This document shows, piece after piece, positions 60,386 to 63,629 of a stretch of 64,000 nucleotides of DNA. The position numbers and the translations under genes are program-made. The notes under the pieces were generated by a model. It saw only the letters and a list, made by a program, of their open reading frames with translations. It searched no databases and was not told the DNA's origin. Each line of letters starts with the position of its first letter. Position 1 is the stretch's first letter. Source of the DNA: an uncultured Pseudomonadota bacterium (GTDB lineage Bacteria; Babelota; Babeliae; Babelales; RVW-14); the NCBI GenBank assembly GCA_964527595.1, contig CAZGPI010000001.1:145145-209144 (forward strand). The letters are read 5' to 3'.

Positions 60386-61063
60386 ATGAAATCGAGAATA
60401 GTCGCCAACCTTGTGCTTATTGGTTTAATCGGCATCGGCTCAACAAATGCAATGCAAACCCCACCCGGCTCTCCGCCACCAGAATTTGCAGAAGTTCCTG
60501 GAGCCCCCATTGCTGATCAAGGCATAACCGATTTAATGCGTGCGGCACAAACAGGAAACCTTGAGGCAGCTCAAAACGAACTTGCCTTCTTTCAAACTAA
60601 TGAATATGTTGGCATCTTTCATGATCACGATGCAATACTCGATGCTTACATGAACGAAACTAATATTCACGGTGAAATAGCCTTGATGATTGCCGCCGAG
60701 AACGGACATCTTAATATCGTTGAGCTTATCCTTAAACAATATGCAACCCAAGAAGCCCGAGACATTGCAATTAATCAAACTTATACATATCAAGACGAAA
60801 CGCTTCTCATGCGCGCTGTACAAAATGGATGGGTTGAGATGGTACAACTACTCCTTGAATATCATGCCGATACAACACTCATCAATACCTTGGACCAAAC
60901 GGCAGAAATGATCGCCAAGATCAAAAAAAGTAGAGCCCGATGCTTTACCAACAAAAGAAAGTTTGGACGAATTCTCAAGCTCTTGGTAGCCCACAGAGAA
61001 CGCCGCCTACAACTTGTATTATTAGCTCATGCTTGGGATGAAGAGTCTGACTCTGATGAATGA
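60386..61063 (+). CDS. Secreted ankyrin-repeat protein (full-length copy)
   Basis: Signal peptide 'MKSRIVANLVLIGLIGIGSTNA'. ANK repeats 'GEIALMIAAENGHLNIVELIL' and 'DETLLMRAVQNGWVEMVQLLLEYHADT'. Confidence 0.85.
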   Translation: MKSRIVANLVLIGLIGIGSTNAMQTPPGSPPPEFAEVPGAPIADQGITDLMRAAQTGNLEAAQNELAFFQTNEYVGIFHDHDAILDAYMNETNIHGEIALMIAAENGHLNIVELILKQYATQEARDIAINQTYTYQDETLLMRAVQNGWVEMVQLLLEYHADTTLINTLDQTAEMIAKIKKSRARCFTNKRKFGRILKLLVAHRERRLQLVLLAHAWDEESDSDE

Positions 61064-61336
61064 GCAAGAACCAGCAGCAAGCCGTCAGCTTATTGAGTAA
61101 TTAGCCAACTTAAAAAATAGATTTTAAAGCCCTCAACTATTATCCGTTGGGGGCTTTTCTCTTTTGTCCGATTTGATGGCGAACACCATTCATCCAGCTA
61201 ACTCAAAATCTTTTTCATAAACTCTTGTTTCTTACCCCCCCCCATGATAAATTACAAATAGAATGTGACAATGAAGCTTAAGGTGAGTTTCTTGCTTATG
61301 TTCTCGTTAACAAATTTCTCAAAAAGGAGATTTTTT

Positions 61337-61756
61337 ATGAATAGTTTTATGAAGCAAATGCTCGCGGCTATCGCGTTGCTTGGATTTGCAACATCAGCTC
61401 AAGCTCAAGATAAAGTAAACAAAACCCTCGTGGAAAAGCGAATTTACAATATGACTGACAAATCTGCCAACATCGCGGTAACAACAAAGGATCCTGATGT
61501 TGGCCCAACACCAAGCACGATTACGATTATAATTCCCCCAAGGAAGTATGTATCACTTAAATACCCACCAAAACACATCATCAACGTTAAGTGTAACATT
61601 GAAAATATCTCGGCGATATGGACTAGCGCGCAAATAAATAAGAACTCCATGTTTTCCATACATATTGATCATAATGGAAAACTTTTGCTAACCCAAGAAA
61701 TGGTAAATCTAACTCCCCAACCAGTAGCCTATCTTGATGAAGCCATGCAGTATTAA
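61337..61756 (+). CDS. Small secreted protein, cassette variant 1
   Basis: 'AAGGAG' RBS plus ATG. Signal peptide 'MNSFMKQMLAAIALLGFATSAQA' is identical to variant 2. The mature part differs. Confidence 0.65.
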   Translation: MNSFMKQMLAAIALLGFATSAQAQDKVNKTLVEKRIYNMTDKSANIAVTTKDPDVGPTPSTITIIIPPRKYVSLKYPPKHIINVKCNIENISAIWTSAQINKNSMFSIHIDHNGKLLLTQEMVNLTPQPVAYLDEAMQY

Positions 61757-61821
61757 GCAAACCGGAGATGATTTGCTGCGTAGATGAGTTAAGGCCTCGA
61801 GCCTGAACATTATCAAGTGAT

Positions 61822-61863
61822 AAAGAGATAAAACACATCGACAACGGTGTGTTTTATCTCTTT
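61822..61863 (+). terminator. Cassette terminator hairpin, copy 1
   Basis: 'aaagagataaaacaca-tcgacaacgg-tgtgttttatctcttt', a 16 bp stem. Confidence 0.65.
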
Positions 61864-61916
61864 AAACCTATCCATATTCAATATCCCGGCATAAATTTGA
61901 ATTCTTCTCCGATTTA

Positions 61917-62444
61917 ATGCGTGCGGCACTAACAGGAAACTTTGAGGCAGCTCAAAACGAACTTGCCTTCTTTCAAACTAATGAATATGTTGGCATCTTT
62001 CATGATCACGATGCAATACTCGATGCTTACATGAACGAAACTAATATTCACGGTGAAATAGCCTTGATGATTGCCGCCGAGAACGGACATCTTAATATCG
62101 TTGAGCTTATCCTTAAACAATATGCAACCCAAGAAGCCCGAGACATTGCAATTAATCAAACTTATACATATCAAGACGAAACGCTTCTCATGCGCGCTGT
62201 ACAAAATGGATGGGTTGAGATGGTACAACTACTCCTTGAATATCATGCCGATACAACACTCATCAATACCTTGGACCAAACGGCAGAAATGATCGCCAAG
62301 ATCAAAAAAAGTAGAGCCCGATGCTTTACCAACAAAAGAAAGTTTGGACGAATTCTCAAGCTCTTGGTAGCCCACAGAGAACGCCGCCTACAACTTGTAT
62401 TATTAGCTCATGCTTGGGATGAAGAGTCTGACTCTGATGAATGA
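61917..62444 (+). CDS. 5'-truncated duplicate of the ankyrin-repeat gene (no signal peptide; possibly a gene remnant)
   Basis: Nucleotide sequence from 61909 is near-identical to 60528 onward. The ORF starts at the internal Met that corresponds to 'LMRAAQTG' of the full copy. Confidence 0.5.
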   Translation: MRAALTGNFEAAQNELAFFQTNEYVGIFHDHDAILDAYMNETNIHGEIALMIAAENGHLNIVELILKQYATQEARDIAINQTYTYQDETLLMRAVQNGWVEMVQLLLEYHADTTLINTLDQTAEMIAKIKKSRARCFTNKRKFGRILKLLVAHRERRLQLVLLAHAWDEESDSDE

Positions 62445-62717
62445 GCAAGAACCAGCAGCAAGCCGTCAGCTTATTGAGTAATTAGCCAACTTAAAAAATA
62501 GATTTTAAAGCCCTCAACTATTATCCGTTGGGGGCTTTTCTCTTTTGTCCGATTTGATGGCGAACACCATTCATCCAGCTAACTCAAAATCTTTTTCATA
62601 AACTCTTGTTTCTTACCCCCCCCCATGATAAATTACAAATAGAATGTGACAATGAAGCTTAAGGTGAGTTTCTTGCTTATGTTCTCGTTAACAAATTTCT
62701 CAAAAAGGAGATTTTTT

Positions 62718-63185
62718 ATGAATAGTTTTATGAAGCAAATGCTTGCGGCTATCGCATTGCTTGGATTTGCAACATCGGCTCAGGCTGGATCGAAAAAGTT
62801 TTGTAATCACACAAAAGAGGTATTTACGGTCACCTTAAAAATGACAAATAATAAAGGAACCAAGTCCATTAGTTTTAAGCCAGGTCTCTGCGCTACAATT
62901 GATTACGAAACAGTCAATGCAGAGAACATTAGCTGTGCGAACGAGAATTCTTCTACTGTTTTTACATGGGATCCCAACCAAATAAATAGAAATTTCGTTT
63001 TTTATATAACAAGTACCGGGGTATCCCAAGACAATGGAGAGCAATTAAAAAAAATGGCAGCCATGGCTACGGCTACGCCAGTACCAACTTCACCAAGAGT
63101 TGAACCTTCCTATCCCGAAATGGAAGAAGCCTCACAAACGCCGCAAGCTAGCACAAGTAAAAAAACGACCCTACGTCGCAAGTAA
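62718..63185 (+). CDS. Small secreted protein, cassette variant 2 (possibly continues by frameshift to 63429)
   Basis: Same RBS and signal peptide as 61337. Divergent mature domain with a P/T/Q-rich tail. A +1-frame ORF (63100-63429) continues the same composition. Confidence 0.6.
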   Translation: MNSFMKQMLAAIALLGFATSAQAGSKKFCNHTKEVFTVTLKMTNNKGTKSISFKPGLCATIDYETVNAENISCANENSSTVFTWDPNQINRNFVFYITSTGVSQDNGEQLKKMAAMATATPVPTSPRVEPSYPEMEEASQTPQASTSKKTTLRRK

Positions 63186-63483
63186 AAAGGGACCCTATGG
63201 GCGCAGACCCAATATTGGTAAAGCGGCTCATCAGCAAGTGCAACCAGACCCTGATGCGGGATTGGAAGGATCCTCTCAACAGCCGCAACCTGGCGTAACT
63301 GAACAACCCACTCCTCAGCAAGTACAATCCCAAGACGATCGAAAAAAAATATTAGACGAACTCAAAGCTAATAGATTGAGAGAACAGAAGGCTATGATGG
63401 AAAATCAGCCAAATTTCTTACCCATGTAGAGCTAAATATTAATTTATTGATTAAGGCTTTGAATCTGAACATTATCACGTGTT

Positions 63484-63525
63484 AAAGAGAGAAAACACAT
63501 CGACAACGGTGTGTTTTCTCTCTTT
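63484..63525 (+). terminator. Cassette terminator hairpin, copy 2 (compensatory change)
   Basis: 'aaagagagaaaacaca-tcgacaacgg-tgtgttttctctcttt'. The t>g change in the 5' arm is matched by a>c in the 3' arm relative to copy 1. Confidence 0.65.
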
Positions 63526-63629
63526 AAACCTATCCATATTCAATATCCCGGCATAAATTTGAATTCTTCTGAAGAATCGCTATTCTAATGGGGCATTATA
63601 CAACAATTAACGATTACTTTGGGGGATCT

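What the first reader, a model, noticed from the sequence alone, without database searches (positions are those of the whole stretch)
60528..63570. Mosaic tandem cassette: near-identical flanks, hyperdivergent secreted-protein core, truncated ankyrin copy
Unit 1 (60528-61908) and unit 2 (61909-63570) share two blocks. The first covers 878 bp: the 3' two-thirds of the ankyrin gene, the intergenic region with a C9 tract, the RBS and the signal peptide 'MNSFMKQMLAAIALLGFATSAQA'. In a manual read this block differs at only ~6 positions, clustered at its two ends. The second is a ~120 bp tail containing a 16 bp terminator hairpin with a compensatory double substitution. Between these blocks, the mature parts of the secreted proteins (383 vs 664 bp) cannot be aligned as DNA. 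They keep only faint protein similarity ('ENIS...W..QIN(K/R)N..F.I'). The junction at 61908/61909 fuses the tail to an internal ankyrin codon, so copy 2 of the ankyrin gene lacks its promoter and signal peptide. Uniform divergence cannot produce this pattern. It points to recent duplication plus cassette replacement, or to flank homogenisation around a rapidly diversifying exported domain.
Basis: seen in the sequence. Interest (0 to 1): 0.68.

Follow-up and report, generated by a model that had tools for sequence, protein, structure and literature searches.

The report
Mosaic tandem duplication of secreted-protein genes
A protist-parasite-type bacterium (Dependentiae) carries a real two-copy tandem duplication in which the gene fronts (promoter region, signal peptide, part of an ankyrin gene) are identical. 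The secreted domains behind them are old, barely recognisable relatives of each other, which is an ordinary recombination mosaic in a variable gene island, not a new kind of system.

Summary
Block 60528-61405 matches 61909-62786 with 6 mismatches in 878 bp, and the middle 802 bp are identical. The 120-bp tails are 93% identical, and a 20-bp hairpin carries one compensatory pair change. The junction at 61908/61909 has no microhomology.

- **Organism and site:** an uncultured Babeliales (Dependentiae) bacterium. The cassette fills the tyrS-msbA gap. In relatives that gap varies from 65 bp to 5.75 kb and holds unrelated signal-peptide ORFans.
- **Family size:** the ankyrin gene and both small secreted proteins have no homologues elsewhere.
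- **The cores are homologous:** Smith-Waterman z≈8 against shuffles, about 30% amino-acid identity. Synonymous sites are saturated.
- **The divergent tract is old:** the last 15 leader codons carry 4 synonymous and no replacement differences, and the hairpin change is compensatory. So the tract is old, not fast-evolving.
- **Best reading:** a tandem duplication plus homologous recombination between anciently diverged sec genes. The direction is unresolved: core import or flank conversion.
- **Extras:** secB is frameshifted at an A7 run. Two independent short-read assemblies break exactly where the repeat becomes identical, which argues against an assembly artefact.
- **Function:** the β-rich proteins remain uncharacterised.

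The parts
59055..60254 (+). tyrS (tyrosyl-tRNA synthetase), the conserved left anchor of the variable island
   Evidence: Pfam tRNA-synt_1b E=6.9e-76. Synteny TPR-M50-M50-tyrS-[gap]-msbA is conserved in Babeliales MAGs.
60386..61063 (+). ank1: full-length ankyrin-repeat protein (225 aa) with an N-terminal Sec-type signal peptide. A promoter-like site lies at 60309-60336.
   Evidence: Pfam Ank_2 E=7.7e-17. TTGACA-16-TAAGAT scores 10/12. The only homologue at E<1e-5 is ank2.
60528..61908 (+). Duplication unit 1 (1381 bp): ank 3' part, ank terminator, 5' region, secA, 3' hairpin and distal tail
60561..61362 (+). 802-bp tract 100% identical to 61942-62743. It is either a recent gene-conversion tract or the youngest part of the mosaic.
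   Evidence: 0/802 against 2/77 at the unit edges, p=0.008; against 14/196 in all other alignable flank, p=9e-11.
61126..61157 (+). Intrinsic terminator of ank1: 12-bp stem followed by a T-run. The copy is at 62507-62538.
   Evidence: Fold ΔG -19.9 kcal/mol, z -4.3.
61235..61243 (+). C9 homopolymer in the shared 5' region, 94 nt upstream of the sec start codon. The copy is at 62616-62624. It may lie in the spacer of a weak TTGTTT-17-TGaTAAATT promoter (inference).
   Evidence: These are the only C/G runs of 9 or more in 64 kb. No + strand promoter reached the scan threshold here.
61337..61756 (+). secA: 139-aa ORFan. Signal peptide 61337-61405 (AQA|Q), mature β-rich domain 61406-61753. AGGAG RBS at 61325-61329.
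   Evidence: No Pfam, NCBIfam, PHROG or PDB match. AF2 model is all-β but pLDDT is 48.6.
61821..61864 (+). 3' hairpin of unit 1: 20-bp stem, 4-nt loop, no U-tract
   Evidence: T61829·A61856 corresponds to G63491·C63518 in unit 2, a compensatory change.
61908..61909 (+). Duplication junction: distal tail fused to the 2nd base of ank codon 48, with no microhomology
61909..62444 (+). ank2: truncated ankyrin copy (codons 49-225). It has a 175-aa ORF from internal Met 61917 but no SD, no promoter-like site and no signal peptide. It differs from ank1 by Q55L and L59F. Probably a by-product or pseudogene.
61909..63570 (+). Duplication unit 2 (1662 bp)
62718..63185 (+). secB, frame 0: 155 aa. It has the same signal peptide as secA, with 4 synonymous differences. 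The mature β-sandwich-like domain is about 30% identical to secA.
   Evidence: AF2 pLDDT 68.6, pTM 0.60, 8 strands. Foldseek found only generic β-sandwiches, none below E≈0.01.
63159..63165 (+). A7 run where secB shifts frame. A6 would give one intact 236-aa ORF ending at 63429.
63166..63429 (+). +1-frame continuation of secB: a basic, P/Q-rich, probably disordered C-terminal extension
   Evidence: Open frame of 109 codons. Tail homology to unit 1 starts about 20 nt after its stop codon.
63482..63527 (+). 3' hairpin of unit 2 (21-bp stem)
63563..63577 (+). Perfect palindrome ATTCTTC-T-GAAGAAT. Its centre coincides with the right breakpoint of the duplication (63570/63571).
   Evidence: Only 29 such palindromes occur in 64 kb, so the post-hoc p is about 1e-3.
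63630..64000 (+). msbA-like ABC transporter (5' part), the conserved right anchor of the island
   Evidence: Pfam ABC_membrane E=1.1e-21. Synteny.

Best explanation
**What it is.** This is a genuine two-unit tandem segmental duplication. It sits in a lineage-specific island of secreted-protein genes between tyrS and msbA of an uncultured Babeliales (Dependentiae) bacterium.

**Steps**
1. An illegitimate join with no microhomology duplicated a 1.38-kb unit. The right breakpoint lies at the centre of a 15-bp palindrome. The unit ran from inside the ankyrin gene to just upstream of msbA. This left a promoterless ankyrin fragment without a signal peptide (ank2) as a by-product.
2. The two small secreted-protein genes now in the units are true but ancient homologues. 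They share about 30% amino-acid identity and their synonymous sites are saturated.
3. The near-identical flanks and the old core were brought together by homologous recombination, not by fast evolution in place. There are two routes, and I favour the first slightly:
   - The core, with its leader 3' end and proximal 3' UTR, was exchanged for a diverged allele after a fairly recent duplication.
   - An older duplication had its flanks repeatedly homogenised by gene conversion.
   
   In either case the central 802 bp were converted most recently.

**Consequence.** The result is two Sec-exported β-rich proteins with different mature domains. Both are driven by identical 5' regions, RBS and signal peptides.

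**Shown:** the anatomy, the core homology, the age contrast and the variability of the island.

**Inferred:** the direction of recombination, export, co-regulation and protein function. The most likely function is as periplasmic, surface or host-directed factors of an intracellular parasite.
For: - **Repeat anatomy and junction:**
- **Age tiers:**
  - 0/802 differences in the centre.
  - 2/33 at the left edge and 0/44 at the right edge.
  - 4/4 synonymous differences in leader codons 9-22 (pS 0.31, dN 0).
  - 6/32 in the proximal tail.
  - Core pS 0.69, dN 0.82, 46% nt identity.
  - Fisher p values: 0.008, 0.0035 and 0.008.
- **Hairpin:** the compensatory change indicates long-term selection on the stem.
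- **Core homology:** Smith-Waterman score 68 against 28.5±5.0 in 2000 shuffles. phmmer E=1.1e-6 against 5.8e9 sequences.
- **No other family member:** only secA and secB appear in 5.8e9 proteins or 1.84e9 representatives. ank1 has no relative other than ank2.
- **Variable island:** the tyrS-msbA gap is 65 bp to 5.75 kb in relatives, with unrelated signal-peptide ORFans.
- **Independent assemblies:**
  - Logan contigs from SRR12261227 and SRR12261223 are 100% identical to the window.
  - Both end at 60590. That is 30 nt after the last copy-specific base (60560), where a k=31 graph must branch if a second copy with a different left flank exists.
- **Genome habit:** other tandem paralogue pairs in the same window show that tandem duplication is habitual in this genome.
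- **Phylum context:** signal-peptide ankyrins and secreted ORFans are typical of Dependentiae (PMC6561590).
Against: - No reads were available, so the junction and the 2:1 coverage of the identical block are not directly verified.
- The Logan runs may be the same data from which the deposited assembly was made.
- No other allele or paralogue of the sec family exists in any database searched. A donor for a core exchange is therefore hypothetical.
- The two edge mismatches cluster within 33 nt of the junction. This fits the 'older duplication plus conversion' route better than the 'recent duplication plus import' route.
- Export, expression and function are untested. The structure models are of low to moderate confidence.
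Confidence: 0.7

Rival explanations
1. Old tandem duplication with concerted evolution only. The duplication is as old as the cores. The ankyrin fragment, 5' region, leader and tail have been kept similar solely by repeated intragenomic gene conversion, and the diverged core acts as a barrier. This is a sub-model of the best explanation, listed separately because it needs no external donor.
For: - The 802-bp block is significantly more identical than the unit edges (p=0.008).
- Both edge mismatches lie within 33 nt of the junction. This is the expected 'edge effect' of conversion.
- Divergence rises gradually towards the core on both sides.
- No other family member exists that could serve as a donor.
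Against: - The unit edges, including a 44-nt distal tail with no known function in unit 1, are 97-100% identical. The core's synonymous sites are saturated.
- Keeping the very ends of a repeat homogenised for that long is unlikely.
- A promoterless ankyrin fragment would have had to be maintained by hitch-hiking alone.
Confidence: 0.3
2. Assembly artefact. Two strains, each with one unit (one with secA, one with secB), were wrongly concatenated, or a repeat was mis-resolved.
For: The genome is almost certainly a metagenome-derived or draft assembly (a 318-kb contig). No reads could be inspected. Near-identical repeats are a classic source of misassembly.
Against: - The tail-to-internal-ankyrin junction needs k-mers that exist only if reads contain them. 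It is followed by two copy-specific substitutions.
- Two Logan assemblies run unbroken through 60549 and 60560 and stop exactly at 60590.
- A strain SNP bubble would break the contig before 60549.
- A second copy with a different upstream flank predicts the break at 60590.
Confidence: 0.07
3. Recent duplication followed by rapid diversification of the exported domain in place, through positive selection or targeted hypermutation.
For: Secreted ORFans of host-associated bacteria often evolve fast. Only the mature domain is unalignable as DNA.
Against: - Synonymous sites in the core are saturated (pS 0.69). dN/dS is about 0.4, though that ratio is unreliable at saturation.
- The neighbouring leader codons have dS≈0.4 with dN=0. 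The untranslated proximal tail is 19% diverged.
- Selection on the mature protein cannot produce these features.
- No template/variable repeat pair of the DGR type exists in the window.
Confidence: 0.06
4. Contingency (phase-variable) locus. The C9 tract in the shared 5' region and the A7 tract inside secB change length by slippage. This would switch the two alternative secreted proteins on, off or between short and long forms, as in the Mycoplasma vlp or Neisseria systems. This reading is compatible with the best explanation and adds a function to it.
For: - C9 is the longest G/C run in 64 kb, with about 0.04 expected by my own estimate.
- It lies where the spacer of a weak -35/extended -10 pair would be (read from the sequence).
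- secB is split exactly at A7, and one base fewer restores a 236-aa ORF.
- The architecture matches: a conserved 5' region and leader with a divergent mature part.
Against: - No length variation could be observed.
- No + strand promoter passed the scan.
- A7 is short for efficient slippage, and 99 A/T runs of 7 or more occur in the window.
- The frameshift could be a sequencing error or a plain pseudogenising mutation.
- There are only two genes, not a family.
Confidence: 0.1

Closest known systems
Staphylococcus aureus lpl tandem paralogue cluster (Tsuru & Kobayashi 2008, PMC2568036)
   Same: The tandem paralogues encode exported, host-interaction-type proteins. [quoted passage not shown] Homologous recombination between conserved segments shuffles the variable parts.
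   Different: In lpl the recombination site is a central conserved region inside every lpl ORF, and many paralogues and strains are known. Here the upstream ORF is an unrelated ankyrin gene. There are only two units and no other genome to compare. The proteins are not lipoproteins.
Borrelia burgdorferi upstream-homology-box (UHB) / OspE-F-related (erp) genes (Marconi et al. 1996, PMC178399; Akins et al. 1999, PMC96492; titles seen, details from my own knowledge)
   Same: Highly conserved upstream DNA and a conserved leader peptide sit in front of mature regions that are divergent and mosaic through recombination.
   Different: These are lipoproteins on multicopy cp32 prophage plasmids, with many copies per cell. 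Here there is a chromosomal two-copy tandem, no lipobox and no prophage context.
Mycoplasma hyorhinis vlp genes (Yogev et al. 1991, PMC453155; Citti & Wise 1995; titles seen, details from my own knowledge)
   Same: A conserved 5' region containing a homopolymer tract and a conserved signal peptide are followed by a divergent mature region, and the genes are tandemly arranged.
   Different: In vlp the poly(A) tract lies in a proven promoter spacer and its length variation is demonstrated. The mature regions are built of internal repeats, and the proteins are lipoproteins. None of this is shown here.
Signal-peptide-bearing ankyrin-repeat proteins and secreted ORFans of Dependentiae (Chromulinavorax destructans, PMC6561590)
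   Same: The phylum-level context is the same. In that genome 44% of CDS carry signal peptides, 78% of the 98 ankyrin proteins have one, and the secreted set is enriched in ORFans.
   Different: That paper does not describe tandem mosaic duplications ('duplicat' and 'paralog' occur 0 times). ank1, secA and secB have no detectable orthologue in any Dependentiae genome searched.

Membership tests
Tandem segmental duplication | Two adjacent direct copies that share both ends, plus one novel junction joining the unit's end to its start | tested here: met
   Units 60528-61908 and 61909-63570. Tail homology ends exactly at the junction, and the right end is repeated at 63570.
Tandem segmental duplication | The structure is supported by reads or by an independent assembly | tested here: inconclusive
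   Two Logan contigs break at 60590, as predicted for a second copy with a different left flank. Reads spanning 61908/61909 could not be inspected.
Gene-conversion / recombination mosaic between paralogues | A tract significantly more identical than the surrounding homologous sequence | tested here: met
   0/802 against 2/77 at the edges (p=0.008) and against 14/196 in other flanks (p=9e-11).
Gene-conversion / recombination mosaic between paralogues | The divergent segment is homologous, not an unrelated insert | tested here: met
   Smith-Waterman z≈8, p<1/2000. 29.6% identity over 71 columns.
Ankyrin-repeat protein (Pfam Ank/Ank_2) | A match above the Pfam gathering score | tested here: met
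   Ank_2 scores 62.1 bits against a cut-off of 27.3; Ank scores 45.4 against 21.1.
Sec/SPase I-exported protein | An N-terminal n-h-c signal peptide with A-x-A at -3/-1 | tested here: inconclusive
   By reading only. The sec genes show MNSFMKQ-MLAAIALLGFA-TSAQA|, and ank1 shows ...GIGSTNA|M. No signal-peptide predictor was available. There is no Cys at +1, so these are not lipoproteins.
Phase-variable contingency locus (homopolymer slippage) | A homopolymer tract in the promoter spacer or the coding region | tested here: inconclusive
   C9 and A7 are present. The promoter is not identified.
Phase-variable contingency locus (homopolymer slippage) | Tract length varies among reads, clones or strains | not testable with these tools
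   No read data and no second genome carrying the locus.
vlp / UHB-type variable surface lipoprotein family | Lipoprotein signal peptide (lipobox with Cys at +1) | tested here: not met
   The cleavage regions are AQA|QDK and AQA|GSK, with no lipobox.
vlp / UHB-type variable surface lipoprotein family | A multigene family (more than 2 members) sharing the 5' region and leader | tested here: not met
   Only P0001 and P0002 appear in 5.8e9 proteins and in 1.84e9 representatives. The leader DNA occurs only twice in the window.
Diversity-generating retroelement | A template/variable repeat pair with adenine-specific differences near a reverse transcriptase | tested here: not met
   No repeat pair involves either core in the 64-kb window. 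The cores are 46% identical even when aligned by codon. The window was not scanned for a reverse transcriptase.
Integron-type gene cassette | An attC-like imperfect hairpin and a shared core site at every cassette boundary | tested here: not met
   The three boundaries (60527/28, 61908/09, 63570/71) share no core sequence. The hairpin is a perfect 20-bp stem lying 44 nt from the boundary. The window was not scanned for an integrase.
Intrinsic (Rho-independent) terminator, for the 3' hairpin | A G+C-rich stem followed by a U-tract | tested here: not met
   The scan did not report it. The stem is A/U-rich and is followed by AAACC. By contrast, the ank terminators at 61126 and 62507 do meet the definition.

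The most novel reading that the evidence does not exclude
The locus is a contingency and diversification module of an intracellular protist parasite. A population-wide pool of very divergent secreted β-sandwich 'cores' is exchanged between conserved flanks: an identical promoter region and leader on one side, a selected 3' hairpin on the other. Expression is toggled by slippage at the C9 (promoter) and A7 (coding) tracts. That would be a vlp/UHB-like variation system, the first in Dependentiae, and built on non-lipoprotein Sec substrates.
Probability: 0.1. Interest if true: 0.55.

Novelty: new member of a known kind. Interest (0 to 1): 0.3.

Why it matters
- **For annotation.** This is a clean worked example of how accessory secreted-protein genes turn over in Dependentiae, a phylum known almost only from metagenomes.
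  - A fixed chromosomal slot (tyrS-msbA) is filled with different signal-peptide ORFans in each lineage.
  - Within it, duplication plus recombination yields two differently 'headed' proteins under identical expression and export signals.
- **Pitfalls it flags.**
  - A 175-aa 'ankyrin protein' is probably a duplication by-product.
  - A secreted protein is split at a homopolymer.
- **Limits.** It does not reveal a new mechanism. The protein family has two members and no known function, so its wider importance is modest unless phase variation or a pool of alternative cores is demonstrated.

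Tried and rejected
**Homologue and family searches**
- secA and ank1 against 5.8e9 proteins returned only themselves and each other.
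- A profile of both cores against 1.84e9 representatives gave only three weak hits. They are to unrelated multi-repeat proteins (SpaA_4, SEA, Calx-beta). I treat them as repeat-inflated and at most a hint of a β-sandwich.
- Pfam, NCBIfam, PHROGs and PDB sequence searches found nothing for secA or secB.
- BLASTP of the mature domains gave E=28. That negative result was overturned by the Smith-Waterman shuffle test.

**Structure**
- The secA model was too poor to use (pLDDT 48.6).
- The secB model (pLDDT 68.6) gave only generic β-sandwich matches in the PDB, none below E≈0.01.

**RNA and comparative searches**
- Rfam gave only sub-threshold, terminator-like matches.
- I looked for orthologous cassettes next to tyrS in 185,579 species genomes and in JGI metagenomes. 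Synteny was found, but no homologous cassette. The closest TyrS was 79% identical and sat on a short contig with different neighbours.

**Junction and assembly checks**
- Exact-protein look-ups for contigs spanning the junction found nothing on record.
- The hairpin is not conserved upstream of msbA in relatives, so it belongs to the cassette.
- A 7-nt 'GGCATAA' match near both breakpoints does not give the observed junction. I regard it as coincidence.

**Models rejected**
- Integron-type cassette, DGR and mobile-element models were rejected (see the membership test).

Full report

Yes. At an offset of 1381 bp, 60528-61405 matches 61909-62786 with mismatches only at 60549, 60560, 61363, 61375, 61396 and 61402. 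The central 802 bp (60561-61362) are identical.

The tails 61789-61908 and 63451-63570 are 93% identical. Six differences lie in the 32 nt nearest the core. Two more form a compensatory pair in a hairpin. The distal 44 nt are identical.

The leader DNA and the distal tail each occur exactly twice in 64 kb, against 0 expected. The core lengths of 383 and 664 bp are correct.

The junction 61908/61909 joins the last tail base to the second base of ankyrin codon 48, without microhomology.

Three details need correcting.
- The hairpin stem is 20-21 bp, not 16 (ΔG -27.2 and -30.0 kcal/mol, z≈-8). It has no U-tract and was not listed by the terminator scan, unlike the ankyrin terminators at 61126-61157 and 62507-62538.
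- secB is interrupted. Frame 0 stops at 63185, but a +1 frame stays open to 63429. An A6 in place of the A7 run at 63159-63165 would give one 236-aa ORF. The tail homology starts about 20 nt after that distal stop, so the long frame is probably the ancestral one.
- The core similarity is not merely faint (see section 4).

**2. Where is it?**

TyrS is at most 71% identical to any of 185,579 species-representative genomes. The best matches are Candidatus Dependentiae/Babeliales MAGs, so the source is an unsampled member of that group.

The gene order TPR protein - M50 peptidase - M50 peptidase - tyrS - [gap] - msbA is conserved. The gap, however, ranges from 65 bp (L004) to 757 bp, 1.36 kb, 1.93 kb, 2.47 kb and 5.75 kb. 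It is 3.38 kb in this window.

In each lineage the gap is filled mostly with unrelated ORFans that start with hydrophobic, signal-like N-termini. None resembles ank1, secA or secB. The cassette therefore occupies a recurrent insertion and turnover slot.

This fits what is published for the phylum. In Chromulinavorax destructans 44% of CDS carry signal peptides, the secreted set is enriched in ORFans, and 78% of the 98 ankyrin proteins have a signal peptide (PMC6561590).

**3. What are the genes?**

- **ank1** (60386-61063) is a bona fide ankyrin-repeat protein (Pfam Ank_2, 62 bits). It has an N-terminal signal-like sequence, a σ70-like promoter (10/12) and its own intrinsic terminator.
- **ank2** keeps codons 49-225 with two replacements, Q55L and L59F. 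It has no promoter-like site or SD in front of its first Met. It is best read as a by-product of the duplication.
- **secA** (139 aa) and **secB** (155 aa, or 236 aa if the frame is repaired) share the AGGAG RBS and the leader MNSFMKQMLAAIALLGFATSAQA. They match nothing in Pfam, NCBIfam, PHROGs or PDB sequences.
- In 5.8e9 proteins the only relative of secA is secB, and the only relative of ank1 is ank2.
- A profile of both cores against 1.84e9 representatives added only three weak hits. They are to unrelated repeat proteins (SpaA_4, SEA, Calx-beta), and I do not trust them.
- AlphaFold models are all-β. secA reaches pLDDT 48.6. The secB N-domain reaches pLDDT 68.6 and pTM 0.60, with eight strands.
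- Foldseek against the PDB gave only generic β-sandwiches, none below E≈0.01.
- Function is therefore unknown. The safest statement is 'small Sec-exported β-sandwich-like proteins'.

**4. Are the cores related, and how old is the difference?**

BLASTP with composition adjustment found nothing (E=28). A Smith-Waterman alignment scores 68, against 28.5±5.0 for 2000 shuffles (z≈8). It recovers the motif N.ENIS...W...QIN[KR]N..F.I. The cores are homologous.

| Region | Result |
|---|---|
| Core, 71 aligned codons | 29.6% amino-acid identity, 46% nt identity |
| Core substitution rates | pS 0.69 (saturated), dN 0.82 |
| Leader codons 9-23 | 4 differences, all synonymous third-position changes; pS 0.31, dS≈0.4, dN=0 |
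| Untranslated proximal tail | 6/32 differences |
| Hairpin | U·A replaced by G·C, a compensatory change |
| Unit edges | 2/33 and 0/44 differences |
| Interior block | 0/802 differences |

The contrasts are significant. Interior against edges gives p=0.008. Leader synonymous sites against edges give p=0.0035. Proximal tail against edges gives p=0.008. Interior against all other alignable flank gives p=9e-11.

So there is one contiguous old tract. It covers the leader 3' end, the core, the proximal 3' UTR and the hairpin differences, roughly 61363-61856 in unit 1. It is embedded in young sequence.

Selection on the mature protein cannot create synonymous and non-coding divergence, nor a compensatory stem change. 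'Rapid diversification of the exported domain' is therefore not the explanation. Recombination between anciently diverged homologues is.

**5. How did it arise?**

Tail homology stops exactly at the junction with ank2. This is what a single tandem duplication of 60528-61908 predicts. It would be a coincidence under a model of an old sec-only duplication followed by later transfer of the upstream block.

The parental right breakpoint (63570/63571) sits at the centre of the perfect palindrome ATTCTTC-T-GAAGAAT. Only 29 palindromes of that quality occur in the window. Post hoc, this hints at a structure-provoked break or template switch.

After the duplication, two routes fit the data.
- **Route a: fairly recent duplication, then core exchange.** The edges are about 3% diverged. 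The core tract of one unit was then replaced by a diverged allele through crossovers in the conserved leader and the 3' region. Gene conversion later erased differences in the central 802 bp.
- **Route b: older duplication with repeated flank conversion.** The flanks were homogenised again and again.

The near-identity of the extreme unit ends favours route a. So does the 44-nt distal tail that has no function in unit 1. Against route a, there is no conceivable donor in any database, and the two edge mismatches cluster next to the junction. I put about 0.4 on route a and 0.3 on route b within the overall 0.7.

**6. Is it an assembly artefact?**

I could not see reads. However, two Logan short-read assemblies (SRR12261227 and SRR12261223) contain contigs 100% identical to the window. 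These run through the copy-specific bases 60549 and 60560 and end at 60590.

Position 60590 is the last base of the last 31-mer that still contains position 60560. That is where a k=31 graph must branch if a second copy exists whose sequence differs upstream of 60561. A strain SNP would have broken the contig before 60549.

This is good indirect support. The caveat is that the deposited genome may derive from the same runs.

**7. Other readings considered**

- **Phase variation.** C9 is the longest G/C run in the window. It could sit in the spacer of a weak TTGTTT-17-TGaTAAATT promoter, and secB is split at A7. But no promoter passed the scan, A7 runs are common (99 A/T runs of 7 or more), and no length variation can be observed. 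I give it about 0.1.
- **Integron cassette, DGR or mobile element.** All are rejected. The boundaries share no core site, there is no TR/VR pair, and the unit has no terminal repeats.
- **RNA families.** Rfam finds no known RNA in the shared 5' region.

**8. Comparison with known systems**

The closest described pattern is the S. aureus lpl cluster. [quoted passage not shown]

In architecture it also resembles two other families: the Borrelia upstream-homology-box / OspE-F-leader genes and the Mycoplasma vlp genes. Both have a conserved upstream region and leader with a divergent mature part (reference titles seen; the details are from my own knowledge).

It is not a member of those families. 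There is no lipobox, there are only two genes, and there is no demonstrated switching.

**9. Verdict**

The feature is real and correctly described. It is an ordinary kind of event, a tandem duplication with a recombination mosaic, in a poorly known phylum, and it involves a two-member ORFan family. I rate its novelty as 'new member of a known kind' and its interest at about 0.3.

Noticed in passing
window 60255-63629; L001, L002, L004, L005, L084, L147: The tyrS-msbA intergenic slot is a hot spot for gene turnover in Babeliales. It measures 65 bp in one MAG and up to 5.75 kb in another, and each lineage fills it with different signal-peptide ORFans. L002 and L084 also carry a murI-like gene there.
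   Followed up: partly
window 63159-63165: secB is frameshifted at an A7 run. A6 would restore a 236-aa protein with a basic, P/Q-rich and probably disordered C-terminal extension. The cause could be a sequencing error, a recent pseudogenisation or slippage.
   Followed up: partly
window 63563-63577: The perfect palindrome ATTCTTC-T-GAAGAAT is centred exactly on the right breakpoint of the duplication. It lies about 55 nt upstream of the msbA start codon, so it might also be an operator.
   Followed up: partly
window 11074-12048 and 12194-13198 (- strand): A tandem pair of proteins with RING and IBR domains, resembling eukaryotic RBR-type E3 ubiquitin ligases. They are 79% identical over 300 nt, and their upstream regions are 84% identical over 51 nt. 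They are probably eukaryote-like effectors.
   Followed up: partly
window 501-2808 and 2827-5299 (+ strand): Two more tandem paralogue pairs with ordinary divergence (73-77% nt): solute-binding proteins (SBP_bac_8) and type I signal peptidases (Peptidase_S26). Tandem duplication is frequent in this genome.
   Followed up: partly
window 19203, 41520, 48415: G7-G8 runs lie 2-6 nt upstream of the probable start codons of signal-peptide ORFans, for example GGGGGGGGtt-ATG at 48415. They look like unusually G-rich Shine-Dalgarno sequences, and their length could modulate translation.
   Followed up: no
window 22116-22138, 25005-25027, 25148-25170, 30704-30726 (and a partial copy near 30795): A dispersed intergenic repeat with the core TCGGGGCAAGCCCAAGGATGACA occurs in both orientations. 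One 50-nt inverted pair flanks a 5.5-kb block of three genes: an AAA ATPase and two ORFans. A secretin gene lies just outside the block. The repeat is REP/MITE-like and absent from the cassette.
   Followed up: partly
window 61418-61426, 61601-61612 and 62805-62813, 62925-62936: Two N-x-S/T sequons (N-K/H-T near the mature N-terminus and the ENIS motif) are among the few columns conserved between the very divergent secA and secB domains. Their significance is unknown.
   Followed up: no
window 61244-61271 and 62625-62652 (- strand): The best promoter-like match in the shared 5' region is on the minus strand (TTGTCA-16-TATCAT, 10/12). It abuts the C9/G9 tract and points antisense towards the ankyrin 3' end. 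The overall count of promoter-like sites is no higher than chance.
   Followed up: no
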